Positions 13,506-60,356 of a DNA stretch of 64,000 nucleotides are shown piece by piece. Under the pieces are notes generated by a model that searched no databases, was not told where the DNA came from, and was given only the letters and a program-made list of their open reading frames with translations. The DNA is from Lytechinus pictus (Eukaryota), in NCBI RefSeq assembly GCF_037042905.1, contig NC_087245.1, positions 1,116,001 to 1,180,000 of the forward strand, given 5' to 3'. Both the position numbers and the translations under genes were made by a program. Each line of letters opens with the position of its first letter. The stretch's first letter is position 1.

Positions 13506-13564
13506 ATGAAAAGGACAATGAGTGAATCAGAAAGTGACGAATTATTTGACGAGACCATGAAGGG
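13506..13564 (+). CDS. Hey: Hey coding exon 1 (MKRTMSESESDELFDETMKG)
   Basis: ATG at 13506; MKR plus acidic N-terminus typical of Hey; donor GG|gtaaga; phase 2 matches exon 2. Confidence 0.85.
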
Positions 13565-13959
13565 GTAAGATTCATTTTTCATAAATAATTTTATTTTAAC
13601 TAAAATATATTCAAGGGACTTTAGATAAACTTGCTTTAAATTATTGATTGTCGGCTTAACAGCAAAAAAATAAAATAATAATAATATGAAGATTGCACAA
13701 AGCTACCTAGATACATATTTACAATAATGTGCTCATTTTACAAGATCGAGAAAATGATGGAATAATAATCATTATAGTTTTGGAGAAGGTTGACAATGTA
13801 CATTATATTAGATTATTATAATTATCATTTCCTGGCTCGTCCGGCTGAACTTCAATTAACCATAAACTTTGGTGGTTTGACTGGTTGACGACATCTAATG
13901 AATTTCGTTCCATTTCTTCATCTTGATGAAATATTCTGCTTTTATTTTCTGTTTAATAG

Positions 13960-14008
13960 ATCACCCAGTCAATCATGCCCAGTGAGTGCAAGGAAGAAGC
14001 GCAGAGGG
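13960..14008 (+). CDS. Hey: Hey coding exon 2 (SPSQSCPVSARKKRRG, start of basic region)
   Basis: Acceptor tttaatag|, donor GGG|gtaagc. RKKRRG carries the Hey-diagnostic glycine, where Hes proteins have proline. Confidence 0.93.
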
Positions 14009-17000
14009 GTAAGCATTCATTCATTTGAAATCATTCTTAGAAAACATGTTCACCTATAATAATCATACAATATTACATGAAATGTTGTCAAGATTCCAAG
14101 TCTGCGTCATTTCATTGCTAAATAAATTGCTTCTTGAAAATTAGTCTTATACGGCTATTGAACTTCAAATTCGTATCAGTTCGTATTGATTTGATAATGT
14201 CACTGCAAGCAATTAAATTAGGGAAGAATACGTAGAAGGATATGGGCAAATATAGAGGTCGGGCAGTTCAAAACGATTTCGTTTAATTTTGCTAAACTTT
14301 TAACGCCTGCATGCCTATAATTATATAGGTAACCTTTCTTCTTCACTCATCTCAGCCTAGATACGCAACATAATTTACGCGTATGCTTAAATTACTTATG
14401 TCATATATTTCAAACAACGTACGTCTTAAATTAAAACTCGAGTAAGTAACAATTGAATCAAAGTATACGAAATTATTAATCATTGTCAAAGTAAAATTCC
14501 CTTCCAGAACCCATGAATTTCGTCTAATGTAAATTATAAGGAAATAAAGTAACTGTTTTTACTATCAGTAAAGTTAGAGATTTCATATCAGTCTTGCCCT
14601 CCTGTTGGAACTGGGACAGGTTTCCAAAATGAGATGGAACGAAGTGAAAAGCTTCAATTGGCAATGCTACTCGGTGAAGCGAACACTATGTCATCGCTTG
14701 CTATAAAAGGCGCCACGTGCTCGGCCAGCGTCCACGGCGCTTAATTCGCTCAAATCACTTTTGTTCCCATCAAATCAAATAAGACCCCGAGATAATACAG
14801 TAATCTGTAAGAAAGTACACAATTCCTTATTCAAACATTTGTCATTCTTCTTCAAAAGTTGCTTTTTAATGTTTCAGGTGATGTTCCACCTGATAAAACA
14901 ACCAAGTGTGATATGTCAAGAAATCCAGTCGCACTCCAATTACATGAATGCCTGCTTTTAAATCATCATAATCATAACGATGAAAACTATTATTATTTTG
15001 TGAGGTTCACAGCAACCAAAGCGTGATATGCGATAATCATTTATCACAAATTTATTGTAGTTTTAGTTCATGTGTGGCCAAAATAGAATTTAAAGCACTT
15101 GTTAAAGCTTTAACTGTCGAAGGGACATCTAAACTGCCTATACTAATTAAAATCATCATAAAGATGGAGAGTATTATAGGTCTGCATGTTCAAATCTAGA
15201 CGCATTTTAAAAAGTTTGCTTATACTTATAATGCATTACTGTACGAGTGACGTTTTCGGATTCTAAATCACTCGCATTGCAGCATAAATTAGATAAAGAT
15301 GAAACAGGCCTGTGTGGAACAGTACAATATTTAGGTAAATGAAGCGTGTTTTTAAGTCTGTTCTTATTCAATAATATTAAAACTGAAGACATTTAAGTCA
15401 CATTGTGATTTTATTGCTATGCTTTGTGTTACGGGCCCCTGGTTCTGACACAAACAAGAATATATAATGATTTTCCCAAAAGCGTATATTTTGGTCAACC
15501 TGTGTTTACATGATTAAAAGCAAGAGTCGTTTTTAATGATACTTTGATTGTAATGCTTTGGAAATGATAATTCTGGTGGTTCTACTGGTTCTCATTCTTT
15601 AACATGTTACACAAAATAACAATGAACGAGATAATTATGAAAGATATTTTGGTGATGCATAATCGTCGAAAATAACATTGTCATGATTGTTAAATGTGAA
15701 AGTATTTTTGGGGTGATTATAGGTCACGTTAAAAGGGATTGTTAGTGCTCTATTCATTAACAATCGTTTACTTTTGTTACAGAGAGTTAACAGTCCTGTA
15801 GAATATGCTTAATATTATCTCATCGCATTGGATATAAAGTATATACATTATATTAATACCTTAAATGATGTGATTTTCGTTGAACAAGAGTGGTTTGAAC
15901 TACATGTACATACATGATACAGGAAAATTAATATTTGGCTCGTCCACGCGTTGCCATGACAATAAAGTCTTTGGTTATAAATCTATGCGGTGCTTATGAA
16001 TATGATATATTTCTCTCTTAATGATCGGTCATTTCAATAACCAAGTGGTCCACCCGCTAAAGGGTCTGCAATTCAAATAACTCTCCGCCATCATCATGAT
16101 CATGATGCATTCACGCTTTCCAATGCGCAGGCATGGACCGAATCCCCCAGACAAATATTGTTTGATTTCAGCCTATTATCATTCATATCTATATATCGGA
16201 CGGCCTTTGTCAAGTCCTCCTCTGTTTAATTCTTCTATATAATCTCAAGTATTCCATAAGTGGTCCTCATTTGAACGTTCCGATTGCTGCGTTATTTGAG
16301 TTACTGCCTTTATTTCTATCAATGAAAAGGGAATACTATATACACGTCAGCTATTCGCAGCTGGACAAATCTACTCCAAAAAGCTAACGCTCTTTCTATT
16401 TGTTTACAAATCTACTTTATTATCGCGTCAACTTGACTCTATATTGATAAGGCAAAGGGTCCTTTTGTGCAATTTATATAAATGGCCTGCATTATTTGTG
16501 TACTTGAGGAGGGGTCCCATTGTCTTGTATCATGGTGAGAAAATTTTCGCTTAGTTAGGTTTGAGGAATAGATTACAAATGAACTTGAAACATTTATCAT
16601 TAAGTGGTACAATACAAAACTCCGAAAAGAATCAAACAAGTTTAAACAGGTTGAGAGCCACTCTAGTACAAAGACTTCTGATGATTCATTCGAAGAACAA
16701 AGGAAGTATTGGTTTATTAATTGGATAATAATGGTATATTAAGTGCCATATATCACGTAGATAGTAGAAGAGGGCAATTCATTGATACGAAGTTCTTATC
16801 CTGCCTACTGACGTCACTTTCATGACATAATATAACAAAGAACATTGAAATATTTAATTCTTAAACCTTTTAAACTTTAAAACATACTTAACTTAAACTT
16901 AACCATTAAACAAAATCAAAATGACTGACACAATGGCTAACATGATTCTGACTGATTAAAAAAATGCCTTCAGTATAGGCATTTTTTTTTACGATGCTTA

Positions 17001-17269
17001 TTAAAAAGCAAATACGAGATAATAACTTGATATTGATTGCATAATAAAGACTATGTCATGAACTATTATATCAATCTCTCATTTTTCCTCTATCTTCCTC
17101 TGAGTCTCTTCCTTCTCACTCCCTCTCTCCTATTTATCCTGACAATCTTCCCCTTCTACGTTCTGTTTATTCTTCTTTCTCTTAATTATAATCCCTCTAA
17201 ATGTCTTTGTTAATCCCTTAAACCACTTATTTTTGTTTATCTCTCTAAATCCTTAATCATTTCCACTAG

Positions 17270-17353
17270 ATCATTGAGAAGAGAAGACGAGACAGAATCA
17301 ACAATTCTTTAACCGAGCTCAGAAGGCTAGTACCAGCTGCTTTTGAAAAACAG
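17270..17353 (+). CDS. Hey: Hey coding exon 3 ([28 protein letters not shown], basic-helix 1)
   Basis: Acceptor ccactag|, donor CAG|gtatgt; near-identical to the Hey bHLH consensus. Confidence 0.97.
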
Positions 17354-21845: not shown

Positions 21846-21918
21846 GGGTCTGCTAAGCTAGAGAAGGCTGAGATTCTTCAGATGACAGTGGACCATCTGA
21901 AATACCTCCATGCCAAAG
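21846..21918 (+). CDS. Hey: Hey coding exon 4 ([24 protein letters not shown], loop-helix 2)
   Basis: Acceptor actccag|, donor G|gtgatt; canonical [12 protein letters not shown] motif. Confidence 0.97.
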
Positions 21919-22445: not shown

Positions 22446-23146
22446 GTATTGATGGATCTTTTCACCCTTATGGTGAAGCCCATGCGTACGCCATGGATTA
22501 CCGTGTTCTAGGCTTCAGGGAGTGTGCTTCTGAAGTGGCAAGGTACCTCGTCACCGTAGAAGGAATGGACATTCAAGATCCCTTGAGACTTCGACTCATG
22601 TCTCATCTTCAGTGTTACGTGGCTCAGCGTGAGTTCCAGACACGACAACACTATACAGTCTCTGGACACTCTCAGTTTCCTGCGCACACTCATTCGCAGA
22701 CTCCAGCGTTGCCGCCTCCACCTCACAGTGGTCCACAGCATAACGCTGGAGGTGGAGGTGGTGCTACGTCGGAGCATCATCCAGCCAGTCTTCCTCCAGC
22801 CGTTACGTCTGTCAGTGAGAACTCACGTCAGATGCTTCCCATGATCACAAGCACAAGTCATGCAGAAAGTCAACTGCAGACATCCTGTCATGGAAGACTA
22901 CCCATGCCAGCTCCTCCAACCGGTGTTGTATCGTCAGCCCCCATTGGAAACAGTCAGAGTAGTCAGCTATCAACACAGATAGCGCCCTCTCTGCCTATCC
23001 ACAGCCAGTATTCTGTGCCATACAACTCGTTGCCTGTCCTCTCACCCAATGGCTATACCGGAAGCCCTACCAGCACATCGCTCAACTCACATACTGCCCT
23101 GGTATCCAAGCCATATCGTCCATGGGGAACCGAAATGGCCTACTAA
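22446..23146 (+). CDS. Hey: Hey coding exon 5 (Orange domain, Pro/Ser-rich region, KPYRPWGTEMAY*)
   Basis: Acceptor tatacag|. Orange domain DYRVLGFRECASEVARYL...DPLRLRLMSHL; YRPW plus TE motif. The spliced CDS is 966 nt (321 aa). Confidence 0.97.
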
Positions 23147-24595
23147 AGACATTTCATATCAACCAAAGAAAAAAAAGTACCCATTACTCGTGCTCCACAC
23201 TCTGCATGTGGGACTTAAATTTTTCTAACGAATGATAAATCCCTGATAATATTTCTTTGATAGTGTAGAAAAAGTATGACCTAGTACTTTTATGATGCAA
23301 TGCCCTACGATTCTGGACCTATAATGTGTTACATTTGACAGTTTTTCCTGTGTTCTTATTTCTCCATGTGTCAATTTGATATTTTTGATTGATTTATTTA
23401 AACTTCACCTTGATGTCTTGTATGGAAATACATAATGCAAATGTCCTTACTGTTTTGTAAATTCTTTATGTTCATTGGCTTACCAAGCGAACCTTCATTG
23501 TATTGTATTTTTCGTTGTTTTAGTTATTGCAACTACATGCTACATGGATGGCTATATAATTGTCTGTTTAAGGCAGATGAGCATTGCAATAACTGCGTGA
23601 ATATTATTTTCGTGGACCATATTGGCCGATAATGAGACATTTACGCAATACTATGATATAATTCATCCAAGTAAAAACCAACATTCCAGCATCACCAGGC
23701 GTATGCAGCGTCTGGTGATATATATATGTGTGCCGCTGAAACATTCCAATTTATCATCTTATATTGCTTACTTGTTTTTCGTTTTTAATTGATTCCATCA
23801 AAGGAAAAAGGCCGATTTTGTATTCAAGCGTTCGATAATTTCTGTATCATGAACCGATTATAACACATAGATACTCTGGGAATGAACAGTTCATATTACA
23901 AGGGAATCTAATGGAATGGTATACATGGTATAGTAATCAACGATTAGGTAGTTGTCAAAGCAAGCTAAATATTTTCTCATGTTCAGAAGATTTCTCTCCA
24001 CTTTTAAAAATCAACTATACATAGCTTTATTATTTTATTGAAAGCTATTGTCACAGACTTGCTTGCCTATTAAATTTACAAGGATACAAATAAACAGTGA
24101 CATATTATCAAGATAAAAAAATGAAATGATCGTTATAAGAGTAGTGAAAGTGCAACAATTATACCAATTCTCATTTCGTGGAAAGTGCATAATGATGATC
24201 TAGATAGATTTCTCGTGTTTTGTATCAAAGATGACTTGTGATTGATGGTTTACCTACTTTCGTATTCATCAATCATTCCTTTCCAAATATTACTGATTAA
24301 AATATAGATCGTCACAGTGGATTAAAGATGCAATTCGTTGAATCGTATGAACCATCGACTATGTTCGACCCCCCCCCCATGATTATGTAAAACCTTCCTG
24401 AATTAGAAACGATTGTCTCTCCTTAAATTTCATATAAACTGTGTAATCCTCAAAGAATATTTTCGCTCGATTAATGCATGGAATGCTGTAAAAATAGGGG
24501 AGGGGTCGGACTTACAAAATCTTTTACTATTTGAAACAAAGTGGACATCGTTAACTTATTAATTGATGTAATATGTTGATTCCTTGTTTCAATGA

Positions 24596-24842
24596 TACAC
24601 TAAAAAAATATTGGGTAAACATGCTCCGTGATGGTAATTATGTGTCCAACCAACACTGGGCATTTCTTTTGGGCATTTTTATTTTTCCAGTGTGATGAAA
24701 ATTTTGCCCATTCTAAAGAAATTTCTGTTTATTTTTTACCTTAGTGGACAATACGCTTCCCGCATTGGGTAAAATACTGCCCAAAATTGGTTGGACACCT
24801 AATTACCCTCATGCTGGTTAAAATTTTACCCAATACAGTGTA
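24596..24842. mobile_element. Small MITE with CACT...AGTG termini and TA flanks (EnSpm/CMC-like, tentative)
   Basis: TA|CACT..TATTGGGTAAA..GGTAATTATGTGTCCAACCAA is mirrored by TTGGTTGGACACCTAATTACC..TTTACCCAATACAGTG|TA. Confidence 0.75.
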
Positions 24843-25437
24843 CGTTGTTTCTATTTCGAATATACTAGTAGAGTGTAACTCGAAATAATATCAATGTCGA
24901 TAAAATACAATGATTCAAATATGGTCAGTGTTTCCTGACTAGTACCTCATTATTTAATAATTTATTCATCTCTTAACTTATTATGTACATATTGAATTGA
25001 TTACAATGTATAAGAAATCTACAATCAATCTTCTATACGGACAAGCAGGAAAACAGTTAACTTACAAAGTTTACTTCGTTTGCATTATTGATGAGCAATA
25101 AATGAAGAGGGTCAGTTTTGCTTCCTAGTTTATTTTTGTATAAAGAAGCTAAAAATGTTTAATTTGCATTTAGATTTTGCTACCTATTCAATATTGTGTA
25201 TTATTTATTATTGTGATAAACAAAAAACAATGAATAAAATATGAAAATAATTGTATGTAGAAATCAAATGAGAATAGAGTCTTGCATTTCATTTGACGTT
25301 CCTGTTTGACTTGATTTTAATTTGTTCTTAAGAGGATCAGATCCTTGGTTTCAAATAAGCAGAAATAGTGAGGTAATCAATAAAGTCTATCTGCAAGTCA
25401 AAGTAGGTGCTCAGGGAGCTATATCTAGCTCTACTGA

Positions 25438-25866
25438 TTAAAAGGAGAGGTTCATCCTGATCATGCTGATGGTAAGTTGGTAATAGAAGTAAAATTAGGG
25501 GAAATGGGTGAAGGTTCGGTGAAAATCCAACAAAGAATAAAAGAGTTATGAAATTGTATTTGCTTTTATTTCTGGCGTCATCGTCCGAGCAGCTCCCTAT
25601 TTAAAATTAAATTCAATAAATTCATTTTTTAATGGAACATTGTGAATAAAATATTGTTCATATATAGAAGAGGGAATGACGTTTATGGAATTTACATAAC
25701 ACGACATGACATATTGAGGAATTGCTTGTCTGTGACGTAACAAAACTAAACGTTTAAATATTTAAATTGTATTCTTCGGTGGAATTTCATCGAACCGCCG
25801 CCAATAATTTCCACATTTTTTTTGCGTTTTTTTAATCAAAACTAACTCATCGTTGGGAGGAAATTC
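25438..25866. mobile_element. Old, degenerate TTAA-AG-type MITE
   Basis: Start TTAAAAGGAGAGGTTCATCC..GAAAATCC..AATAAAAGAGTTATGA resembles the other TTAA families; weak inverted counterpart near 25780-25866. Confidence 0.35.
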
Positions 25867-27577
25867 GATGTTTACGGGGGTAGTCAACATTGGTTGGAGG
25901 AGATATAATTAAAACTTAAATCTGGATGAACTGCGAGCGAACAAAGCTCACGATAACAAGGGGGGAGGAAAGGAAGAGAGATTGTAGGAGAGAAAGAAAG
26001 GGGGCTGGGGTAATGGAAGACGGGATACAGATAGGAAGAAAGAAAGAGAGGACGAGATAAGAGAGAGAGGGGTTTATGTTGGAAGGGGTTCGTTTGAGTT
26101 GTTTTTTATTATCTGGTTTCTTATATCATTATTCATCATGACAGAGCAGTTGCTTCTACTTGTGCTCATTCGTCGGTATATACTGAAAGGGGGGTTTGCG
26201 GCCATAGACCCAAAATGTTTCACGAAGAATAAGGGGAAAAAAGACAAGAGAGGAGAAAAGGAAGAGGGGTAAAATGTGATATCATTTTCTGGAGATTAAG
26301 TAAATTCTGTAATTTTATGTATCAAAAAGGTATGAATTTTCACTTGCTCGTATATAGCTTTTTAGAAACTTTGCCGTGTACGCCATGTCCGCACCCCTCG
26401 AAGCATTTGGCACATTGTGCCACTGAGCACAGTATCCCATTGTTTTCAATGGGTATGTTTTGATAGCTGGAATATGCAGCCCTTTCCTCTTAAAATTCCC
26501 ATGTTCATTTTTTTAAGTTGTTATCACTTTCTGATGATTCCCCCTTATACCAAATTAAAATATTGTCTTGATTGCGAAGCAGAATAAACTCGTTTGATTT
26601 CTGACGATACCTTGATTTATCCCTTTAATCAGCTTAACATGCACAATTTCTTTCTGATCAGCACCTTGTCCATGTTCTCCAGATTCTAAAAATTCACTTA
26701 TCAAACTGAGATAAAAGTCCATATACATTATTTTGTCATCATTAGTGATTATTGTTCCTTTTTATATCTCATAACTGACCAATTTTCATACAAAATACCC
26801 ACTCGCCATTTTGATTATTACCCATGATATAAATATTGTTATTTTTCATTCATTAATTTCCTCTGATAAGCGTCTCATTTCAACCATGTTACTCACTTAT
26901 TTTAATATTTCTATTCATTCTATTTCTGAGTAAATGTGTAAGTGAGGAAAACCCCATCTTTTTCTTCAGCCAATACAGAGAACTGGAAGTCGTTTTGACA
27001 TTGACTCATATTTCTTGATTTCAAGAAATTTGTTCTTGATATCAAGAAATGATAAATGAGAAAAACGACATCTATACAATGTTGGCATACGCTGGTAAAA
27101 ACGTCAAGGTTAAAAAGCCATTTAAATTATATTTTAGTGTCTAATTGTGAGTAGATGTCTCGAATATAAAAAATGATAATATCGGTCAATAAAATAATGA
27201 CGAAATGAGCAATAGAAAATGTGGGGGGCAAACATGGCGTATTGGGCAAAATTTTTAGAATGTCGCGAGTGAGAAGCAAGCGAACAGGAAATAAATTTCG
27301 AAGTTTTTTTTTAATGAAAATCTTATTTTGTGATAGATCTTGATATTTAACATTTTTTCTTCTCATTCTTTAAAAAGATTATAGTGCTTTTTTATGACTA
27401 TAGTGGTATTTGAGCTGGTGTACCTGAGGAGAAAGGGAAGGTCCACCGAAACTAATTGTGGATTCGAATAAACTCAGATATACAGATTCCCTCCTTGAAA
27501 TTTTATCAAACTAGGATATTAAAGTAACAAAGTCATATACATTTTAAGGTATTTTTCTTTTACTATAAAACAAAAAC

Positions 27578-33546: not shown

Positions 33547-33607
33547 GGGGGGGGGGGTTGGTGCTTGTGTTGATGGTTTTGAGATGGAGTGTTCGTGTTT
33601 GAGGGTC

Positions 33608-44260: not shown

Positions 44261-47099
44261 GTAAATTCGATCCCCAATTTATCTATCATGGGTGGTAAAT
44301 GACTCGAACCATTTGAAAATATTGCATAATTTATGTTACTATTACTTCGTTTGTTTCTTGATTATAATTGTCCGCGTGCTACTTCTCGATGTGGGACTGG
44401 ACAGTGGGAGTGGGAGGGCCGAGGGGAGCCATCGGCATCGGATCGCAGCATCGCGCCAGGCCTTAAGGCGACCGCACACCTTACGATTGGTCATGGTCTG
44501 CGAATCGCGAATATAACGTAGGCCCTAGTAGAAATTGATGCTTATATTGAGACTTGGAATATCTTACTGTGTAATGTTCAAAATCATTGTACGAAAACCC
44601 ATGTTCAAATATGTGATTGTGACTATTCACTATGGCTATGCTATCAGTATCATCCTTCTTAGTCTTACCACTCATCCTACGAACGAGGTTAGAAATAGAA
44701 TAAAAGCAAATTTAATATCTGAGTGACTAAAGTAGGAAAGTTAGTCGTAATGACGTCACTCATAGTCATAGACATAGGATAGCAGTCGTACGATTGGCTA
44801 CGACTTGAAACTTATTTGGCATTTACTCCAAAGTAAAGTCTTGCAATCATCAACAATTGTTATATTAGTATTCTTTCAGTTAATTCAACCTCAAAAGTCA
44901 ATTCTCATTCAGATTTTCAGAAAATAAGCAAAATGCGATTTTTTTTCCAAAAATCGGATCGTGGATAGGGTGGGCAATGGCACCAGATTTGTGCTGTAGT
45001 CAATGGGGGAATTTGCCTCAAATTTTCATTCTATATTTTGAGTGCACAATGTAGTGAAATGTAGCAATATCTTCACATTTTCTGGTAGCCTGGGGCTCGT
45101 TTCTCAACACCTGGACAAGTTGGTCATATCTTTATCCACCCACGGCTACATCTCAGCCGCCGACTACAGAATAATTGAAGGCATCGCACAGCGCATTCAA
45201 CAAATAATGTTAATTTACAAAAAATTAATACGAGGACTTACAGAATGAAGTCCTCCTACGAAACTTACGAAACGATGTGAAGTCAATTCCTCATAATTTG
45301 ATGAATATCTCTCAAAATGCGTCATTTAAGCGTTGATTTTTCTTCTCGTTGACAAAATACGAGAGCTATCTTTCTAGCTCTCAAATTTTTCGTCTAATGA
45401 GCGAAAGAGGGCGTGCGATTTATCTTCATATCAAAGACACTACAGTTGAAAGACTAGACACAGAAATTATCTTACACGTAAATCGATGCAAAGCGTTACG
45501 CGAAGTCGGCAAAGTGTTAAATCTTTTTACTGTAAAGACTTTGGTGGAACGTTAATTGACAAACGAACGGTAGCACTTGCGGGGCTTTGTTCAAGGTACA
45601 TAGAATTTTCTATATTTTTTGTTTAATTTGTCATCGTTATGAATATTTTCCAAAAAGTATTATCGTCAGCAAAAATAATAAAAAAGTATGTTTTTTAAGT
45701 TATTGCATTTATTGGAGTCTCTATTTTATCAAACAATGATTGGAATTGCGCATACAATGAATCATGAATCTAGTTTTAAAAATACCACCAAGCTGAATTA
45801 AGGTTGCGAACTGTATTAGCGCCACCAACGACCTTCCTTTTATTTCCGTGGAAGAGACGTGCGAAGCCACTTTCCAGGCGGAGGTAAGCGATTTTGCTCT
45901 TTTTTGTGTCCTTTTTAAATTAAAAAAATAATGGAACGCTTTCTACCAGAAAAAGCCCTGGTGAGTAGCGGAATGGGTTTCGGCTAACATCATTCACGTT
46001 ATGAAGCGATGTTAACGACAACTCTAAAATCCACTACAAAAACACGTTGGTTGTACGAGGTTCGTATAGCATATGCTAACCTCGCAATAGTGTGAGTGAT
46101 CTTTATCCACCAACCACGGAGTTAGTTCCACTCTTACTAAACCTGTTTCACTAAAGGCTTCCTAACTAGAATACCTTGATATCGATACTATCGGTAAAAA
46201 GAGCAGACGAGACGTAACCTTAATCACAAAATAGCATAATTTTAAAAAAGAAAAATTATGACAAAATTGCAAATATTGTGATGAATTGGGAAATACATCT
46301 TTTCAAAATAATAACACAAGTTTAATGTTGTAAATCGGATCAAAAATCAGATCGAAAATCGGATCGGCAGTTAAGCTTCTAAAATCGAATCGAAAATCGA
46401 ATCGGCGATGTTTAAAAACAAAGGAATACATCAACATTTTGTTCGCGGTCGCGCGCATCTTCCTGACAAAGTCACAAAGACGAATGTTTAGGAATGGAAG
46501 TACCGGTAGTCGACATGCGCGTTCGTTTGGAACATGCTTTTAAAGGGTTTTGAGGTTTAACTGCTTAACAATAAAATGAGTGATTTTTATTAGAAAGATA
46601 AACGAATGACGCATCTTCCGAGCAGTCGCAAAGGAAAATAATTCTCGTAGATCACAGGTCAATGAACGATCGGCGGGACATCTTTTATAAGTATTTTTAT
46701 GTGAAGCTGAGCTCAGCTAAGTTCGCTCATTATAATATGTGATTACAGCCACGCCCAATAACCATTCCAAAGTACACCCATTTTGTTATAATAGCTTACT
46801 TGGTACATCATTTCTCCGAATCAGTTCTGGGAAAAGTTAAGTCACGCCTCAGTATCGATCTTTTTGTATACCCACCCACTCAACAATATCAGTGAATTAC
46901 GCAATGCGCGCAAGCATTCACACAATACAAGATAGTTTTGTGGCATAGCCGAGAACTGGAACCGCCCAGACTCAACGGGCTAGCGCAAAATTCTTTACAC
47001 TACCTTTTGGCATGTGCACGTGGTGGGTTTGATTGACACTGCTAACAGTGCTATTCTTTGAGTTGGCTCACTGGCTGGATTAATGACAATATATCACTG

Positions 47100-47690
47100 C
47101 AAGTATGGCTTACATGATACATACAACACGCAACACATCCATACACACTGCTCTCAAACTCCCTTGCTATTATTCGTACCTAGGCCGTGTGTGCACTTAT
47201 GGGCGGGATTTAAGCAGGGCATTGACTAGCATATACAACACATCCATGCACCCAGCATTCATATACATTTCTCAAACTCCCTTGCTATTCGTCCATTGTG
47301 TGAACTCATGGGCGGGATTATGACAAAAATTAGCGCAAGCACTAGCATACGTAATACACACAATACATTCCTGCACCCACGCGGTCACACATAGCTCTCA
47401 AACTCCCTTGTCATTCGTCCATTGTATTCACTCATGGGCGGGATTTATCAGCGTAAGCACTAGCATACATAATGCATACAACACATTCATGCAGTCACAC
47501 ACAACTTTAAAACTCCCTTGCTATTGGTCCATTGTATTCACTTATGGGCGGGATTTATCAGCATAAGCACTAGCATACATAATGCATACAACACATTCAT
47601 GCACCCATGCAGTCACATACAGCTCTCAAACTCCATTGCTATTGGCCATTGTGTGCACTCATGGGCGGGATAAATGACAAACACAGTACA
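47100..47690 (+). repeat. Diverged tandem repeat, unit about 115-135 bp, about 5 copies
   Basis: Recurrent CTCTCAAACTCCCTTGCTATT..CCATTGTGTGCACTCATGGGCGGGAT. Confidence 0.85.
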
Positions 47691-48549
47691 AGTACATGTT
47701 CATTGTTTGTATATTATACAATACATTCATTCCAAGTTACACTCCTGCCATACCAGTCAGCGCAGCTACCGGTAGGTCATCATAAGTAGGTCAACCTTTT
47801 ATGAGTCATTTCTGACATTCTAGGAATCTCGATTGTTCGAACTATTCGATTGTTAAAAAGCTCTAAATAGCTAGCACCTCTGCAAGAACAATCTTGAAAT
47901 ATGTTCTGACCGCACTGTAACTAGATCTACAGGTATGCCGATTTTTTATATCCGATTTTTTTCCTTCAAGGGGCATGATCGAAGATCGGCAAGTGATCGC
48001 CGATTGTTGTGAAATCGAATGGAATCGGTTGCCGATTGCAAAATCGGTTACAAGCTTACACAAGTTAATTTAGACCAAAAGTTTCAGTCTCTGTATTTTG
48101 GTTGTTCCGCTGAACTGCGTTGGCTCACTCACCAATACATAGACTGAAGAGCTTGGAGGCCCGTTTTACAGACAACGTATTAGCAGTAACGTTAGATCTA
48201 ACATTCGGCGGAAACCCGATTTTCCGATCGTTTTTTTGTACATAAAATGTCACATTATGAAAAAGAAATAACATCCATATTTACGAAAAAATGTTTAAAA
48301 TTCAAAAATATCGTACCTTAGACCGCAGTTACCGCTAATTCCTTTCAAATGATGATCGAAACATCGTCATCTTTGATCCTTTCGTTGGTCAACGTAAGTT
48401 GCCATCTTTGGTGACGTCATCATCCTTACAAACGTATTTACAAGACGTTATATATTGCGATTTGTGCCGCTGCTTAACGCTTGTAGATGTGCGTGCGTTC
48501 TGAACTTGTCGCTCGCATTGATTGGCCAGGATATCGAAAATTTGATCGG

Positions 48550-51200
48550 AAAGCCTTGATAAAAGCACAACTCGTTGACGGCTGCCATTTTTTCCTCTCA
48601 GGCAGAAAATTAAAAAAATAAGGAATAACCCGGGGAATAACTCATCGGTAACGTATATTTTCGATATTTTACATAGGGGCATTTTCACGGTAACTGACAT
48701 TACACGGCACAATGTTTTCACACCTTTCATTGTGTGTATCTCTAAAACAACAAATGATGGGAGTTTGCTTTTGATTGAGTTACTAAAGAGAACCTTGCTG
48801 TATTCTCTGATACTAAGTTTTTCTATGTAACCACATTTTTTTACGCATCAGCAAGCAAAAATGTGTCGGTAACTGACATTACGAAAAAGGACCTGCAATT
48901 TTAGGGTGTTCATTAAAATAGAAATATCTCATGTCCCTGAGTAGATAGAGTAATAATTTGAATATGTAAATATACCTCCATTACTAGGTTAAGATGTGTC
49001 AAAATATTAAACAATTCATTTTTGTCTTTTGGGGGCTATGATAATTTTTCCGCAACCAAGCTGGTAACTGACATTACACTTAATTTGCCATAGAGATAAC
49101 ACATGGAAGTCAAATGTGTGGAATCATTGCATTGTATCTTCTGTGCAGGGCTTCACATGAAAGTGAGCTTGGAAGTATACCCGAGTTTCTAGGAACATTT
49201 CAATGAAAAAAAATTTTCTTTTTCTTAATTCGTTTCTTTGATTTGAACATTTTTATCATTACTTGTCGGTAACTGACAATACACATTAACATTTACCAGT
49301 GCTATATGATTTTCAAAGGCATAATTTTCTTGGTACTTATATGTTATTATTATTATTATTATTATTATTTATTTGACCAATATAAAAAAGAACATATACA
49401 TTACATTAGAATAAAATTTACAGTACATTAACATGCAAAGAAATGCGGGAACGGCATGTGGGTCAGGGGGCACAAAAGCAAAATACATCACTGTTGCCCG
49501 AAGGCATGAGCCCCCACACATGCCGCTCCCAAGACATAAATAAAATATATAAATACTCTTACACAAAGTTTTGCACGTTAAAAAAGGGAATACTGAAAAG
49601 GGTGCCAAAATAATTAATTAGATAGTCTTGAGATGCATTAGAAAAAAATACCACTGCAAAATTGGAGAAATATAACATAGTAAAAAATTAATACCTCGGT
49701 GCTGAACAGTAATGAAAGGGGCATGTGAGGCTTTTTAAAATCATAAAAGTTTCATAATACTTCACATTTTTAATTATCAAAAGATAAGAAAGAAAAGATA
49801 AGGGGGGGGGGGGGGTCATAGCAGCTACATGTTTTCCTATAGTAATTTAATATTGCATTGACTGTACACATGGATTTTTCTGACTATACATGTACACCCA
49901 TAATATGTTCATCAGTTTTATAATGACTTTTTAAACCTTTTCCTTCTCCAACCTCCCCCTCCCCTCAAAAAAGGCAAAATGAATTTCCCCAAGGCTACAC
50001 GTACCCCTCCCCCGAATCTCATGCAGCCATGTAGTTTTATTGATTTCTATTCTGGTCAGTGCAAGCAATGCTTGTTCATGTCTGTCGGATTTCTATTCTC
50101 TTCATAATTTGTTTAATCATTTTCTTTGCTAATTTCTTTTTTAAGCTGTCAACCAAAAAAAAATCCAGCTTCTAAACTGAAACTGAATTATTTGTAAATT
50201 AGAAAAAAAAAACAGTTTTAGTAGATCCATGCAACATTGATCAGAACTGTCAAATTTCACTTTTCATCTATACTTGTAAACCAAAAACAAAAATTGTATC
50301 ACACATCCACACTACTAACAGGCATAAAAACCAGGAATTTACTTTTAGCGAGGCAATGCTCAAAAGAATCCTAGAAACTAAAAAAGGGACCCTGGAAATC
50401 CCCTTCATCACAATGTTAAGCTTAAAAAATATTGCAGATTTAGACAATACAATAGCAAGCTCCTTCTGGTGTGAAAGACTTGAATAACAAGTATACAATA
50501 TTTCTTCACCATAAAATTGACCAAATATTTGCATTTCAATATTGTTAACCAACATTTTATCATGGTAACTGACATTACATATCAGTAACTGACATTACAT
50601 TTTCCACTTGGTAACTGACATTACATATATTCAATGGTACCCTATGGCTTCATTGTTAATTGGTAATCTTTAATTTTGGTGTAGAAGGGAGGGGTGTTAC
50701 CTAGAGAGGAAATCTACCAAGTTTCATATAATATATCCTCTTTTCCAGGAAATGAGAAAAAAAAGTTCATGTTTTCGGTAACTGACATTACATACCATAT
50801 CACATATTTCATCAATGTTTTTTATCAGATGAATGAATTACTGGTGTTTCTTTCTGTGAGATTTTAAAAAGTGTTATAATAGCAAGCTAAATCAAAGGCG
50901 AAAACATCATGATCAAACCTGTTCTTTAAAAATCTGTCAAAACAAATTATGTATCAATATACTATTTTCAACACTAATTTGTATCCATACTTTGGCAGCC
51001 ATTTTGAAATAAAAAATGGCTGCCAGAGTCGGAAAAAAATTTTGTCTCAGAAACTTCAGGTCTTGTATTATTAAAAAACATAAAGCATTTGACATGAATA
51101 TCAACTTGATTTTTTTGCCTCTGTGTCCATCTGTGGTGAAAATGCCCATAGTATCAAAAGAAAGATTAGAGTCTAACGAAAATAGTGGGCCTTCGCGTTC
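48550..51200. mobile_element. Unclassified repeat carrying 8 direct copies of GGTAACTGACATTAC, split by other insertions
   Basis: Motif at 48689, 48868, 49063, 49268 (variant), 50564, 50584 (variant), 50610 and 50777. Boundaries are approximate. Confidence 0.5.
49345..49650 (-). mobile_element. Probable LINE 3' end with (AAT)n tail
   Basis: The minus strand reads ..F-L-M-H-L-K-T-I*, reminiscent of L2/CR1 ORF2 C-termini, then a T-rich UTR, AATAAA and (AAT)n. Confidence 0.4.
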
Positions 51201-53154
51201 AAGATAATATAATGTCATTTAGAATCTAAAAGAAATTAAAATCTGGACAAAACCCGTCCTCCAATTGCCGACCAGATTACACATGCAGGCTTGCACTAAC
51301 ACACTACCGTCGGTGAATGGGGATTATAGTAAAATGTCCGAAATTGTTGAATAAATCCCCAGAAATGACGGTTATTCCTGTCTAAGGTTAATTATGCATC
51401 ATACATACTTAGACCATAATGACTAGAGAATTCAATTGCTGAGAAAATTAAATTATGAATAATTCATTTCATGACTAAAAAATCACATGTGGACGTTGAG
51501 ATGGGTACCCCCGGGACATCGAATTTTAATAGTTTACGAAAGTAAACCATGACGGTTTTCTTGGTAAACTGATGATAATTATACGGTCTTCTACGATTCC
51601 AAACATCATCAAAATATAGTTTAACAAAAAAAATAAAAATCTTTGATACCGAAACATACGAATTGACAAAGTCTATGCATAAATTAGAGATAATTTATCC
51701 GAATGTTAATAGGGGTCTGAAAACAACAAATAAGAGTTTAGTTTATGGATGGCCTGACGTGGTAGAATTTTTATCGATTAAACCATTTTACTATTTCAAA
51801 CTGATTGGTTTGTGGCGTTTTACCAACAGTTTTTATAGTTTATTTGTATTAGAATTATCATTGAATGTACATGTATTACCCCACTTGTTTTGTGATGTAA
51901 TTTCAACCTCTACATGATTGATCACGTAAGATTATAATTTCTAGGAACTTTTGCATGTCATAGTCTACCCATGTGATGCCACTACGTCATTAAGAAAGAA
52001 GTTATGACAGGTTCGGAGGTGTCATAAATATTTAGTGAGGTTGTTGTACCCGATCTTGGTAAAGAGGGCTTCGTGAAACGGTTGGCGGACAAGTAGCTCA
52101 CTATCTCTGATTTAGTCAAGAATTTAGACTTATGAAGGTGTTGTGAAACGGGCCCCAAGTTATCAATGTGACATGTTTCCATGGCAGCTCACAGAGGCTC
52201 AAACAGTCTAGGTCAGCATAAAGACTTAAAAATGCCCATTTTCAGCCACTAGCCCACACAGTATAGCCTATGGGGATGGGCCAAAATGCTGTATGCATTT
52301 CCAGACACATTTTATGGAGCATTTAAGCCTTATTTTTCACTTTTTAAGAAATGTTATGGTAAGTTTTGAGCAATGTTTTTTACATTAATGCTAATAAAGA
52401 ATATGTTAAGGTAATGTTTTTAGTAGAAATGCTGTTTCGTTTTTGTTGTTGTCCTACCTATCATGGATCAGTCGTATGGTGTGCTGTGGCCTTAATGTTA
52501 GGGGGTACCGGTGAGCTCAGTCAACCCGTCGCCGTCAGCTTCCCTTTCAGCAGCACAAGGCTCTCGTTTTTGAGCTATGCAGCTGCATGCGAGCCCTGAG
52601 GCTGACATGCATGCACTTGCGTAGCAACGTGTATGTAGCATGCATACGGCGGCATGGCTGAGGCCAAGCATATGCGTGCTCAACCACCCTGTGATCAGTC
52701 TGTGCTGTGAATGAAGATGACATTGAGACTATGAATTTGATGGCCTTATCCTGAAATAAGTCACCTCTCTTCTTGTGTGTGTGCGCTGTTGTGTACAAAG
52801 TAAATGGGAGAGGAAAGAAGTCACCGCCGCTGACGAAATGAACGGCAGTGAATGGAGTGGTGACTTAAACCAGGATAATGCCACTTGATTAAGTGTCTGA
52901 TATTTGTGCACTTTACTCATTACTTATGAGAGGCAAATAAATAAGTTTTAGAGTCTAGACTAGATCTAGAGTAAAGTGCCCAAATACCGGACACTTAAGC
53001 GTAATAGCCTACATGTAAATAGGCCCAAAACAAAAATGCAATCATTGGACATTGAATCAAATAAAAATCATATTTCCATAGTACAAATGTTGAATATTTT
53101 ATAATAATGTCACGCAGGGTGACCAGACATCCCATATTTCCCCGGATCGTCCCT

Positions 53155-53750
53155 CATTACCTCTGCCATTTTTACCTCTGCCATTATTACCTCTGCCATT
53201 TTTACCTCTGCCATTATTACCTCTGCCATTTTTACCTCTGCCATTATTACCTCTGCCATTTTTACCTGCACCATTTTTACCTCTGCCATTTTTACCTCTG
53301 CCATTATTACCTCTGCCATTTTTACCTCTGCCATTATTACCTCTGCCATTTTTACCTCTGCTATTTTTACCTCTGCCATTTTACCTCTGCTATTTTTACC
53401 TCTGCCATTTTTACCTCTGCCATTATTACCTCTGCCATTTTTACCTCTGCCATTATTACCTCTGCCATTTTTACCTCTGCTATTTTTACCTCTGCCATTT
53501 TACCTCTGCTATTTTTACCTCTGCCATTTTTACCTCTGCCATTATTACCTCTGCCATTTTTACCTGCACCATTTTTACCTCTGCCATTTTTACCTCTGCC
53601 ATTATTACCTCTGCCATTATTACCTCTGCCATTATTACCTCTGCCGTTTTTACCTCTGCCATTTTTACCTCTGCCATTTTTACCTCTGCCATTATTACCT
53701 CTGCCATTATTACCTCTGCCGTTTTTACCTCTGCCATTTTTACCTGGCAC
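53155..53750 (+). repeat. 15-bp minisatellite CCATT(T/A)TTACCTCTG, about 39 units
   Basis: Directly visible; it generates the repetitive ORFs in the track. Confidence 0.97.
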
Positions 53751-53756
53751 CACGGA

Positions 53757-55937
53757 GGTGCTGTCAACACCAAATCTTAACCGAAGGTTAAGTTTTGAAA
53801 TGACAGCATAACTTAGAAAGTATATGGACCTAGTTCATGAAACATAGCCATAAGGTTAATCAAGTATTACTGAACATCCTGCCTGAGTTTCAGGTCACAT
53901 GACTAAGGTCAAAGGTCACTTAGGGTCAATGAACTTAGACCATGTTGGGGGAATCAACATCAAAATCTTAACCTGAGGTTAAGTTTTTGAAATGTCATCA
54001 TAACTTAAAAGATATATGGACCTAGCTCATGAAACTTAGACATAAGGTTAATCAAGTGTTTCTGAACATCCTGCCAGAGTTCAGGTCACATGACCAAGGT
54101 CAAAGGTCATTTAGGGTCAATGAACTTAGACCATGTTGGGGGTATCAATATCAAATCTTAACCAAGGTTAAGTTTTTGAAATGTTGTCATAACTTCGAAA
54201 GTATATGGACCTAGTTCATAAAACTTAGACATAAGGGTAATAGTGTATCAGTGAAGATTCTGCCTGAGTTTCAGGTCACATGATTAAGGTCAACAAACTT
54301 TAGCCATGTTGGGGTTATTTGAGGAATTGCCATCATAACTTCAAAAGTTTATGGATCTAGTTCATGAAACTTGGACAGAAGAGCAACCATGTATCCCTAA
54401 ATATCATGTGCGAGTTTCAGGTCACATGATGACCAAGAAAGTGCAAAAAGAAATTATGATAGTCCTGATTGTAAGAATGAGGTCTTCAGAGAACTTTAAT
54501 GAATTTGAAAAACATTGTCTTGTAACCAATGTTTTTACTTCAATGTTTAAAAAAAAGAGAGACCTTGGCCATATTGGGGGTATTTGAGGAATTGTCATCA
54601 TAAGTAACTTTGAAATGTTATAGATCTAGTTCATGAAACTTGGACATAAGAGCAATCAAATTTCTTTGAACATCCTGTGCTAGTTTCGGGTCACATGACC
54701 AAGGTCAAATGTCATTTAGGGTCTACAAACTTTGATAATGTTGGGGGTATTTGTGGAACTGTCATCATAACTTTTAAAGTCTATGGATCTAGTTCATGAG
54801 ACTTGGACATATTAGAGCAGCAATGTATCCCTGAATACCCTGTGTGCGTTTCAGGAACATGGCCAAGATCAAAGGTAATTTAAAGGTCAGTGAACTCTGG
54901 CCGTGTTGGGAGTATGTGTGGAATTGGCATCATAACTTGGGAAGTTTATGGATCTAGCTCATAAAACATCAACATAAGGGTAATCAAGTATGAATGATTG
55001 TTTTGCACATGTCTTAGGTCACATGATCATGGTCAAAGATCATTTTGGGTCAATGGACATTATACAAATGATGCATGGGTTAGAGTGGGTCAGTAGGAAC
55101 TGTGTGCACAAGGTAACTTTTGCATGGTTTAACCCACGAGGCGCAGCCGAGTGGGTTTAGACCATAATGCCAAAGTTACCGCGTGCACACAGTTCCACTG
55201 ACCCACGAAAGAAACCCATGCATTATCTGTTTTATAGAATGGAAAAAATTTATTGAATAAACCACAAAAATTAATGATTTACCGGATGCATGATAATTTC
55301 ATGCGTCCGGTAAATTCAATTTACCGGACGCATGAAAATATTTACCAGACGCATGATTTATTTTACCGGACGCATGATTTATTACCGGATGCATGAAAAT
55401 TCCAAAATGTAATGCAGACCCTTTGATAACCCTGGACAACATAAATATGTATGCCTAACTTGATAATATGTTGGCACAAAGGCATTATTATACCCAAAAT
55501 GCCAGATACAGCTTTGCATTGACTAGATCTATGAGGCAGCCTCAGACCTCCAATAGCTGTGTGTGTATGCCCGGGCCGCGCCGGGGGCCAGTGCCTACGG
55601 CTGCCTGGGCCTGCAGTGGAGATTTGGCTGTGCTCAGCCAGCCCAGGCAGTAGATCTAACGTTAGATCGTATGTCTGGACTTCTCAACTAACGAGTATGC
55701 AGGCAGTTTTAATCCCTATGACAATTACGGTACCGTATTTGTACTTTTGATTATCGGGATATCGTTCATGCAGCCCAGTAAAAATTCTTGCATAGCTCTC
55801 AACCAATCAGATTGCAGGGATTTTCCCATCCATTCTATAAAATCTTTTAATATCATATTAGCTGTTTTCAAAGGAAGCACTGCTGCTATATCCAATTGTG
55901 TAATGCACACAAGACTGCCAGAGGCGTTCCACTTGTT
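53757..55937 (+). mobile_element. Helentron/Helitron-like non-autonomous element with tandem cores of about 120-170 bp, interrupted by an insertion at about 55061-55848
   Basis: Repeated GTTCATGAAACTTGGACATAAG..GGTCACATGACCAAGGTCAAAGGTCA units over 53760-55060. The 3' end GACTGCCAGAGGCGTTCCACTTGTT matches 27578-27721. Confidence 0.7.
55061..55848. mobile_element. Nested element with a terminal hairpin of about 150 bp (Crypton-like, tentative)
   Basis: Palindrome 55071-55223 centred on CCCACGAGGCGCAGCCGAGTGGG. Inverted pair TTTTATAGAATGG (55230) / CCATTCTATAAAA (55830). Internal TTTACCGGACGCATGA repeats at 55278-55400. Confidence 0.6.
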
Positions 55938-56183
55938 TCTTTTTGACTTGTACTTTTTCTGTCAGAAAGTATTGGAGGTTTTTTTCTTAGTTTCCTTTCT
56001 ACTTTTTATAGATGATTAATCAGTATTTTTTTCTCTCTATTTCTTTTCTTCCTCTTTCAGTCTTTTATGTAACTGGGCCCACCACATTGAAAATACAATT
56101 TTTATAGGGCTGTTGTTGCTATCTTTCATGAAATATCACTCCGTTTTTCATGTTCATATCTCCCTTTAATTTGTTTACTGCAG

Positions 56184-56305
56184 AGTCAACCCCGTAGAGG
56201 ATGGCAGTTAAGAGGATTGACCAATGTAGAGAGTGTATCAGATCACATGTATCAGATGGCTATTATGGCTATGATCATCACAGATAAGAGTTTGGATAAA
56301 AACAG
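56184..56305 (+). CDS. HDDC2: HDDC2 coding exon 2 (SQPRRGWQLRGLTNVESVSDHMYQMAIMAMIITDKSLDKNR)
   Basis: Acceptor tactgcag|, donor AG|gtaact; PR.GW and ESVSDHMY motifs. Absent from the ORF track. Confidence 0.94.
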
Positions 56306-57390: not shown

Positions 57391-57493
57391 GTGTGTACAA
57401 ATTGCTCTTGTACACGACATGGCCGAGTGCATTGTTGGAGATATAACCCCTGCCGATGGAATAAGTAAGGAGGAGAAACATCGAAGAGAAAAA
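57391..57493 (+). CDS. HDDC2: HDDC2 coding exon 3 (CVQIALVHDMAECIVGDITPADGISKEEKHRREK; HD motif)
   Basis: Acceptor atgtag|, donor AAA|gtaagt; signature ALVHDMAECIVGDI. Confidence 0.96.
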
Positions 57494-58270: not shown

Positions 58271-58339
58271 GAAACCATGGAGAAGTTATCAAAATTAGCT
58301 GGTCCTGAATCGGGTCAGGAAATGTATCAATTATGGAAG
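58271..58339 (+). CDS. HDDC2: HDDC2 coding exon 4 (ETMEKLSKLAGPESGQEMYQLWK)
   Basis: Acceptor ttttcag|, donor AAG|gtgggt; phase 0 at both ends; E.Y.LW motif. Confidence 0.92.
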
Positions 58340-58362: not shown

Positions 58363-59163
58363 TAGGGACAGTGATTTTCTGGGATCGCGGAAAACGGACA
58401 GAATTCATGGAAACAGCCTTTCGAAATGGAAAGTGGCTTTTCAAATGGAAATCACCAAAAAAAAACTTTTCCTCAAAATGCATAGTACAGCAGCAGAAAT
58501 TACTCCAAAATCTAAACAAATTATGAATACCAGGGCCACAAAACATGATCTCACTTTGCTACAATCATGACAATCCACACATCATGACTGCACTCAACTC
58601 CATCACTCGATCATATCGAAATAAACATTCACAAGCACAAGCTGAAATAAGCGACCAAACATTGTTTGATAACAACCAACGAACATAGAAGGCGCAACAT
58701 GGCCATCTTTTGCTGCCCTCTATGTTCGGTGATGTAACAGCATGATCGCGGTACTCCTCAAATCCAAAATGGCAGATAGACGGAATTTTTGGACTGATCA
58801 AAACAATGTCCAAAAAGTCCCCAAATTATCAACAAAATTTCATTCAACCCTAGTATGAAAGTTGAGGATGTATTCATGTTAAATGTGTTTCTTCAAATAT
58901 TTTGTGTGCTCGTATAGATCTGATTAGAGTGGCTTCTAAAGCGTTGTTAGTACAGTGGCAGATACAAACTTGACCAGCGCGAGTATTCATATTGTGACAT
59001 CGCTACTCAGTGCGTATTGATTTTCTATGTAAACTAAATTGTCATTTTTTTCATGTACACATAGTCTATGGGGAAGCGGAACTTCCAATTTTCAGACAGG
59101 CTGAAACCCAATTTAAGATTTTCTGAAATGGAAAAGGCCATTTTATAAAAATCACTGTCCCTA
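58363..59163. mobile_element. hAT-like MITE in HDDC2 intron 4
   Basis: Perfect 16-bp TIR TAGGGACAGTGATTTT / AAAATCACTGTCCCTA. Flanks agctatat / ctctatag match only partly as an 8-bp TSD. Confidence 0.8.
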
Positions 59164-59553
59164 CTCTATAGAGGTACAAGGCTTTTCTGCAATATCTATT
59201 CTGCTTATATTTCTTTTCACAAGTACTAAATTTACAAATATGCATGCTTGCCTACATGTACATTGTATATCTTGTGATTCAATCTCAAAATATCTCTTTA
59301 GAAAATCAAATCTGCACATATCTTTAGATTTTTGGTCTTGTTTGTCATAGAACTGCTTATTATAGTAATTATTTTTGTTAGTAGTCCAAGATATATCATT
59401 ATATCATATATTACTTGTTCTGCCTTAATTTTTTGGTTCCAGTCATATTTACCAAAATGAGGGACTTTAAAATGCAAGCTTTTATGGAATCATCTGACCT
59501 ACCAAATGCTTTACACATGAAAGATTGAAAACACATTTTTGTCTGACATGCAG

Positions 59554-59692
59554 GAGTATGAAGAACAATCATCAGCAGAGGCTAGGTTTGTGAAAGACCT
59601 TGATCGCTTTGAAATGATCTCACAGGCATTCCAATATGAAAAGAGGGAAAATAAACCAGGTCTTCTACAAGAGTTCTTTGATTCTACACAAG
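59554..59692 (+). CDS. HDDC2: HDDC2 coding exon 5 (EYEEQSSAEARFVKDLDRFEMISQAFQYEKRENKPGLLQEFFDSTQ)
   Basis: Acceptor catgcag|, donor G|gtgagt; EYE.QSS.EA.FVK.LD..EM motif. Confidence 0.95.
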
Positions 59693-60258
59693 GTGAGTTA
59701 ACCTCTCTGTCTCAAGTCTTTCCCACTTCTTACCACTTCTACCATCAAAAGGAGTATTGAAGTACTGTTGCATGAAAAATGGAAGGAAATGTTCTCTGTT
59801 TTCATCCAATATTAACAATCATTCATGCAGACTCCTCTAGTAAAACTTCCTTGCCTCTTGTATGGCTGCCTGTAGGATTCCCTGAGTAAGACACAGTTCT
59901 CGCTTATGACAAAGTAACTTAATGACTGCTTGTAGGAGAATTTCAGTGAAGTCATCTTTGCACAAAAATGTGATGGTTAAGTGAGTATTAATAGACTTTT
60001 CAGTTCTAATCCCTCTCTCAAAAGTATCATTCTATGGAAGTGAATATTCTTCTCTTTGTAATAAGGGATAGGATTATCCAACAGTAGCCTTAATCAATTT
60101 AAAGCTGAGAATCCCCTTTTTCCAGGAGGGATAATTAAATGAAGATTCATTTCTGGTGACTTTTTGTGAGTTTTGCCATGCCTTGTGACATATTGAGGTT
60201 ATTGTACATGAGGTCATCCCCAACATTAGATATCTTTTCTTTCCTTATCTTATTGCAG

Positions 60259-60356
60259 GCAAATTCAGCCATCCATTGGTGATAGAATGGGTAGAAGAAC
60301 TGAATAAACAGCGAGACAACATGATCAAGGAACATCAAGATCAGAGCTCTAGTTGA
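60259..60356 (+). CDS. HDDC2: HDDC2 last coding exon (GKFSHPLVIEWVEELNKQRDNMIKEHQDQSSS*)
   Basis: Acceptor attgcag|, phase 1 consistent with exon 5; GKF.HP motif; TGA at 60354-60356. The spliced CDS is 588 nt (195 aa). Confidence 0.92.

What the first reader, a model, noticed from the sequence alone, without database searches (positions are those of the whole stretch)
13506..60356. Hey-MRPS28-HDDC2 in one block: candidate pre-duplication ancestor of two vertebrate loci
Seen: a single Hey gene followed by MRPS28 and HDDC2 within 47 kb. Established (recalled, not looked up): human HEY1 neighbours MRPS28 and TPD52 on 8q21, and HEY2 neighbours HDDC2 and TPD52L1 on 6q22. Inference: this is the ancestral arrangement, with reciprocal loss of the bystander genes after vertebrate genome duplication. 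It may be held together by shared cis-regulation. A TPD52 gene is predicted nearby outside the window.
Basis: partly seen in the sequence, partly recalled or inferred. Interest (0 to 1): 0.72.

Follow-up and report, generated by a model that had tools for sequence, protein, structure and literature searches.

The report
Sea urchin Hey gene neighbourhood
A sea urchin keeps three unrelated genes (the developmental regulator Hey and two housekeeping genes) side by side, an ancient arrangement already published for other animals and known to have been split between two human chromosomes, so this is one more example rather than a discovery.

Summary
The window is a Lytechinus sea urchin locus with intact Hey (+, 13506-23146), MRPS28 (-, 44073-42396) and HDDC2 (+, 44204-60356); all introns are GT-AG and the proteins are 99.5-100% identical to L. 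pictus records. Touceda-Suarez et al. 2020 (PMC7530604, Suppl. Fig. S2) describe this Hey-Mrps28-Hddc2 genomic regulatory block in amphioxus, Saccoglossus, Capitella and Trichoplax, its reciprocal bystander loss in vertebrates, the TPD52/TPD52L1 boundary, and a zebrafish enhancer near hddc2 that contacts hey2. They had no sea urchin data; this locus fills that gap, and database records suggest linkage in 13 of 14 invertebrates checked (proxy only). No TPD52 was found in the window; its presence nearby is untested. Hey enhancers inside the sea urchin block were not shown.

The parts
13506..13564 (+). Hey exon 1, coding part (RefSeq model starts at an upstream in-frame ATG, 13479)
   Evidence: start matches the Hey N-terminal motif
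13960..14008 (+). Hey exon 2 (basic region with the Hey-type glycine)
17270..17353 (+). Hey exon 3 (bHLH helix 1)
   Evidence: Pfam HLH E 4.1e-08
21846..21918 (+). Hey exon 4 (bHLH helix 2)
   Evidence: Pfam HLH E 1.1e-06
22446..23146 (+). Hey exon 5 (Orange domain, C-terminal Hey motif, stop)
   Evidence: Pfam Hairy_orange E 2.3e-13; HEY1 structure 2db7 E 6.8e-20
23147..42395 (.). 19.2 kb between the Hey and MRPS28 stops; holds both 3' UTRs and a tandem array of about 6 kb; candidate Hey regulatory space (inferred)
   Evidence: MRPS28 3' UTR reaches at least 41500
42396..42538 (-). MRPS28 exon 2, coding part with stop
   Evidence: RNA joint 42538/43628
43628..44073 (-). MRPS28 exon 1 from the ATG
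   Evidence: Pfam MRP-S35 E 1.9e-21
44074..44203 (.). 130 bp between the divergent MRPS28 and HDDC2 start codons; inferred bidirectional promoter or overlapping 5' UTRs
   Evidence: opposite-strand reads on the two sides at low depth, and one X15 contig spanning 43628-44260
44204..44260 (+). HDDC2 exon 1
   Evidence: X15 contig leaves the window exactly at the donor, 44260
44261..56183 (+). HDDC2 intron 1, 11,923 bp, repeat-rich; candidate site of Hey enhancers under the GRB model (inferred, untested)
56184..56305 (+). HDDC2 exon 2
   Evidence: Pfam HD_3 E 6.9e-09
57391..57493 (+). HDDC2 exon 3 (HD motif)
   Evidence: Pfam HD_3 E 1.2e-12
58271..58339 (+). HDDC2 exon 4
59554..59692 (+). HDDC2 exon 5
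   Evidence: Pfam HD_3 E 6.7e-10
60259..60356 (+). HDDC2 exon 6 with stop

Best explanation
This is the sea urchin copy of the published Hey-Mrps28-Hddc2 genomic regulatory block. Shown here: three intact orthologous genes next to each other, with MRPS28 and HDDC2 head-to-head 130 bp apart. Shown by others: the trio is linked from placozoans to amphioxus, human HEY1 and HEY2 each kept one bystander after genome duplication, and a zebrafish enhancer near hddc2 contacts hey2 and drives expression in hey2 domains. Inferred: Hey, a patterned developmental repressor, reads enhancers lying in or around the two housekeeping genes, so breaks between them are selected against; the two housekeeping genes are also tied to each other by a shared promoter; genome duplication freed each bystander to be lost from one copy.
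For: Gene models and identity. Hey signatures met. Published block, reciprocal loss, 4C and reporter results (PMC7530604 supplement legends and tables). Linkage proxy from record metadata: 13 of 14 invertebrate species with at least two of the genes have them on contigs of identical length; tight cases are L. variegatus (accessions within 17), Diadema antillarum (all three on one 858,648-bp scaffold), Acanthaster (2.3 Mb, 4 apart), Patiria (consecutive), Ptychodera (5 apart) and the scallop Mizuhopecten (1.3 Mb, GenBank numbers 2 apart). Lv-hey is expressed in a few scattered cells (PMC6371548), the profile of a GRB target. Divergent pairs under 1 kb apart are a recognised bidirectional-promoter signature (PMC3514665).
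Against: No sea urchin enhancer, conserved non-coding element or chromatin contact was shown; no other eukaryote DNA could be aligned. The recalled Su(H)-type motif is not enriched (7 matches, 9.3 expected; none in 9768-28217, which covers the Hey promoter and gene). Linkage elsewhere rests on contig length and accession order, not coordinates: in 5 species Hey is 244-1,266 accessions from its partner (Asterias rubens, Haemaphysalis, Glandiceps, D. setosum, Mya), S. purpuratus numbers are uninformative, and in Anneissia the genes are on different small scaffolds. No gene tree with vertebrate HEY1/2/L was built. Hey appears inverted against human. RNA depth over the promoter bins was under 2.
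Confidence: 0.8

Rival explanations
1. The linkage is ancestral but no longer serves Hey in sea urchins: only the MRPS28-HDDC2 shared promoter is under constraint, and Hey stays nearby through slow genome rearrangement.
For: 130-bp divergent spacing; MRPS28 and HDDC2 accessions are consecutive in D. setosum while Hey is 650 away; Hey appears inverted against human (strands recalled); no motif enrichment; the space between is repeat-rich.
Against: Hey-HDDC2 linkage is kept in 5 of 8 and Hey-MRPS28 in 3 of 8 non-vertebrates of the published set, and in vertebrates each bystander stayed with a Hey gene after the pair itself was split; zebrafish enhancer data.
Confidence: 0.17
2. The adjacency is chance or an assembly artefact of this genome.
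For: L. pictus records show two MRPS28 and two HDDC2 accessions, hinting at a duplicated stretch in the assembly; a 6-kb tandem array lies between Hey and MRPS28.
Against: The same three genes cluster in independently assembled L. variegatus and Diadema and in published amphioxus, hemichordate, annelid and placozoan genomes.
Confidence: 0.03

Closest known systems
Hey-Mrps28-Hddc2 genomic regulatory block (Touceda-Suarez et al. 2020, PMC7530604, Suppl. Figs S2-S3, Table S1 GRB 15 and 16)
   Same: Same three genes, single Hey with both bystanders, same reading of reciprocal loss in vertebrates and of cis-regulatory constraint.
   Different: The paper had no data for S. purpuratus; this is an echinoderm copy. 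The legends I read say nothing on head-to-head spacing or on Hey orientation (the figure itself could not be seen). No functional data for sea urchin.
Human HEY1-MRPS28-TPD52 (chr8) and HEY2-HDDC2-TPD52L1 (chr6)
   Same: Orthologous genes; order Hey, bystander, TPD52 family (Table S3 and Fig. S2C legend).
   Different: One bystander each; far larger gaps (HEY1-MRPS28 150,855 bp; HDDC2-HEY2 about 448 kb from the legend's 44 + 404 kb) against 19 kb here; by recalled human strands Hey's 5' end faces the bystander, here its 3' end does; no TPD52 seen in this window.
Conserved head-to-head coregulated pairs (Irimia et al. 2012, PMC3514665)
   Same: MRPS28-HDDC2 is a 5'-5' pair under 1 kb apart; the paper names reciprocal loss after duplication as a way such pairs split.
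   Different: The pair is not named in the main text; its supplements could not be read. Co-expression was not tested here.

Membership tests
Hey subfamily of bHLH-Orange repressors | bHLH plus Orange domain | tested here: met
   Pfam HLH and Hairy_orange
Hey subfamily of bHLH-Orange repressors | Glycine, not proline, in the basic region (PMC1950541, PMC4172395) | tested here: met
   alignment; against HES1; definitions
Hey subfamily of bHLH-Orange repressors | N-terminal motif and 13-residue C-terminal motif of Gazave et al. 2014 | tested here: met
   both present; the short motif before the Orange domain differs by one conservative residue
Hey subfamily of bHLH-Orange repressors | Groups with vertebrate HEY1/HEY2/HEYL in a gene tree | not tested
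   no vertebrate Hey among the 120 hits listed of 496; best solved-structure match is HEY1; one Hey in S. purpuratus by PMC4172395 Table 3
MRPS28 (bS1m) | MRP-S35 domain; best matches are mitoribosomal bS1m | tested here: met
   6 of 6 structure hits are MRPS28, best E 1.3e-40
HDDC2 5'-deoxynucleotidase | HD_3 domain with HD motif; best match HDDC2 | tested here: met
   HDDC2 structure 4dmb E 9.8e-68 over residues 6-186, yeast YGL101W 7.4e-44
Hey-Mrps28-Hddc2 GRB | Developmental gene next to both bystanders with no gene between | tested here: met
   (145 of 574 other segments scanned, no hit above cutoff)
Hey-Mrps28-Hddc2 GRB | Linkage conserved across distant lineages | tested here: met
   proxy only: same-length contig in 13 of 14 species, tight in 6 besides L. 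pictus; published for four non-vertebrates
Hey-Mrps28-Hddc2 GRB | Enhancers in or near the bystanders act on Hey | not testable with these tools
   shown for zebrafish hey2 in PMC7530604 legends; nothing for sea urchin
Hey-Mrps28-Hddc2 GRB | TPD52-family gene flanking the block (stated for the vertebrate copies) | tested here: inconclusive
   none in scanned segments; window ends 3.6 kb after HDDC2; no genome held
Bidirectional-promoter gene pair | 5'-5' orientation, under 1 kb apart | tested here: met
   130 bp between ATGs
Bidirectional-promoter gene pair | Divergent transcription starts from one shared element; co-expression | tested here: inconclusive
   strand pattern fits but depth is under 2 and no start site was called

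The most novel reading that the evidence does not exclude
The block has two nested locks: an ancient MRPS28-HDDC2 bidirectional promoter, and Hey enhancers that work whichever way Hey faces. If the head-to-head pair is the ancestral state, the lost MRPS28 copy on human chr6 ran from the HDDC2 promoter towards HEY2, so the published hey2 enhancer about 44 kb from HDDC2 would lie in the eroded MRPS28 gene body, and the compact 47-kb sea urchin locus would be a small testable model of how that gene desert arose.
Probability: 0.3. Interest if true: 0.4.

Novelty: already known. Interest (0 to 1): 0.2.

Why it matters
It adds echinoderms, and tentatively a scallop, to the species that keep an already described ancient regulatory block, where the source paper lacked sea urchin and Lottia data. 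The compact locus, in an embryo suited to reporter and knock-out work, would let one ask whether Hey enhancers in bystander territory predate vertebrates. The concept, its vertebrate history and a functional test are already in print, so the gain is small.

Tried and rejected
No whole genome is held, so TPD52 near the window and a second copy of the block could not be searched. TPD52 and other genes inside the window: 145 of 574 segments scanned, nothing above cutoff. The three entries named 'tumor protein D52 isoform' that I read (P0032, P0074, P0115; P0034 likewise up to a divergent tail) are MRPS28 sequences filed under a merged locus, so they gave no TPD52 query. Su(H)-type motif (recalled): 7 matches against 9.3 expected, 80 of 100 shuffles reach 7; rejected as evidence. 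The long frames at 33.3-39.4 kb and 53.1-53.8 kb are tandem repeats, not genes. The RefSeq Hey isoform X2 start at 21172 lacks most of the bHLH; not followed up. No RNA holder listed in the run index; raw reads X19 and X20 were laid instead. Most reads laid on 41500-46900 came from dispersed repeats (share running on unlike 0.93), so only exon bins and the intron joint were used. Linkage look-ups for Dermacentor, Rhipicephalus, Ixodes, Ylistrum, Pecten, Argopecten, A. amurensis and sea cucumbers held one gene only and were dropped from the count of 14. Paper searches for the trio or pair and for a sea urchin report of the block listed nothing relevant; one search found PMC7530604. Supplements of PMC3514665 were unreadable and bioRxiv supplements are closed; either may hold orientation data. 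Our-findings look-ups gave one unrelated SINE note and nothing on this block.
Full report
Observation. Reading the window and joining exons by coordinate gave open frames with GT-AG introns throughout: Hey on + from 13506 to 23146 in five exons (321 aa), MRPS28 on - from 44073 to 42396 in two exons (195 aa), HDDC2 on + from 44204 to 60356 in six exons (195 aa). Pfam finds HLH and Hairy_orange, MRP-S35, and HD_3 in the exons. The models are 100%, 100% and 99.5% identical to Lytechinus pictus proteins, so the window is a Lytechinus sea urchin locus. No fourth gene was seen: 145 of 574 other stop-free segments were scanned and gave one sub-cutoff hit. The long frames at 33.3-39.4 kb and 53.1-53.8 kb are tandem repeats.

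Orthology. Hey has the basic-region glycine and the terminal motifs that define the subfamily (definitions: passages of PMC1950541, and PMC4172395; alignment). Its best solved-structure match is the HEY1 Orange domain, E 6.8e-20. MRPS28 matches only mitoribosomal bS1m, 6 of 6 hits. HDDC2 matches the HDDC2 structure at E 9.8e-68. No tree with vertebrate Hey paralogues was built, because none was among the 120 of 496 hits listed.

MRPS28 and HDDC2 are head-to-head with 130 bp between their start codons; Hey and MRPS28 are tail-to-tail, 19,249 bp apart; HDDC2 intron 1 is 11,923 bp. RNA laid on 41500-46900 confirms the MRPS28 intron (4 reads in X19, 4 in X20, contigs in X1 and X15). First mates lie on + over the MRPS28 exons and on - over 44215-44395, which fits divergent transcription, but depth there is under 2 and no start site was called. 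One X15 contig covers 43628-44260 and leaves the window exactly at the predicted HDDC2 donor. A shared promoter is therefore likely but inferred. A 5'-5' pair under 1 kb apart is the signature used in PMC3514665 (part 2 of the text read).

Linkage elsewhere. No eukaryote genome could be searched, so I used record metadata as a proxy. Of 14 invertebrate species with at least two of the genes, 13 have them on contigs of identical length. All three genes: L. pictus, L. variegatus (accessions within 17), S. purpuratus (one 39.67-Mb scaffold), D. antillarum (on each of two scaffolds, 858,648 bp and 2.6 Mb) and D. setosum (MRPS28 and HDDC2 consecutive, Hey 650 away). Hey with MRPS28: Acanthaster (2.3 Mb, 4 apart), Patiria (consecutive), Ptychodera (5 apart), Asterias rubens (244), Haemaphysalis (590), Glandiceps (604). 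Hey with HDDC2: Mizuhopecten (1.3 Mb; GenBank OWF49151 and OWF49153) and Mya (1,266 apart). In Anneissia the two genes are on different small scaffolds. That accession order follows position is my assumption and holds only loosely; the distant cases show a shared chromosome at most. Species with one gene only were dropped.

What is known. Search led to Touceda-Suarez et al. 2020 (PMC7530604; main text parts 1-3 of 5, supplement parts 3-4 of 80 and table rows read; figures not visible). Its Suppl. Fig. S2 is titled as the evolution of the Hey-MrpS28-Hddc2 GRB. [quoted passage not shown] Table S1 lists HEY2=HDDC2 (5 non-vertebrate species) and HEY1=MRPS28 (3), with HEYL unlinked. The legend also says no data were available for S. 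purpuratus or L. gigantea. Searches for the trio, the pair or a sea urchin report listed nothing else; supplements are not searched, and those of PMC3514665 could not be read.

How it most likely works. Hey is a patterned regulator: in L. variegatus it is expressed in scattered vegetal cells and 2-4 apical-organ cells (passages of PMC6371548). By the GRB model its enhancers lie in or beside the two housekeeping genes, so separation is selected against. The bystanders are probably also tied to each other by the 130-bp promoter. After vertebrate genome duplication one copy of each bystander was enough, so each was lost from one paralogon. Shown here: genes, order, strands, spacing and one intron. 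Shown elsewhere: deep conservation, reciprocal loss, the zebrafish enhancer. Inferred: enhancer function and promoter sharing in sea urchin. I put 0.8 on this, 0.17 on passive retention of Hey beside a promoter-locked pair, and 0.03 on chance or artefact.

Results against or limiting. No sea urchin regulatory element was shown. The recalled Su(H)-type motif is not enriched, 7 matches against 9.3 expected. By recalled human strands, TPD52, MRPS28 and HEY1 are co-directional and HDDC2 and HEY2 divergent, so Hey's 5' end faces the bystanders in human and its 3' end does here. The only indirect support from a call is that MRPS28 sequences are filed as TPD52 isoforms in several mammals and as a HEY1 isoform in a bat, which suggests one strand. 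The locus is therefore not an exact image of the pre-duplication state, and which orientation is older is open. The TPD52 prediction is untested.

Verdict. A correct observation and a correct, already published interpretation. The increment is an echinoderm copy that fills a stated gap, plus the head-to-head spacing and the apparent Hey inversion. Interest 0.2.

Noticed in passing
window 33328-39398: Tandem array of about 6 kb (unit about 86 bp with GA/GT microsatellite parts, GC skew up to 0.87) between Hey and MRPS28; stop-free in three minus-strand frames, not a gene.
   Followed up: partly
window 53157-53745, 47238-47671, 53764-54978: A 15-bp minisatellite (39 copies) and arrays of 110-, 191- and 165-bp units inside HDDC2 intron 1.
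   Followed up: no
L. pictus records P0283 and P0242: Two accessions each for MRPS28 and HDDC2 but one Hey gene seen; either a duplicated stretch or an uncollapsed haplotype. D. antillarum shows all three genes on two scaffolds.
   Followed up: no
Mizuhopecten records OWF49151 and OWF49153: Scallop Hey and HDDC2 have one GenBank number between them; the sea urchin order predicts that OWF49152 is MRPS28.
   Followed up: no
window 21172-21336: RefSeq Hey isoform X2 (P0285) uses an alternative first exon in intron 3 and would lack most of the bHLH domain.
   Followed up: no
window 82-689, 40072-40674, 61262-61730, 63542-64000: Dispersed repeats at 83-86% identity; 40072-40674 has inverted arms, like a MITE.
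   Followed up: no
proteins P0025, P0031-P0034, P0074, P0089, P0104, P0115, P0047: Mammalian proteins with the MRPS28 domain are annotated as TPD52 isoforms, and in one bat as a HEY1 isoform, apparently from merged or read-through gene models.
   Followed up: partly
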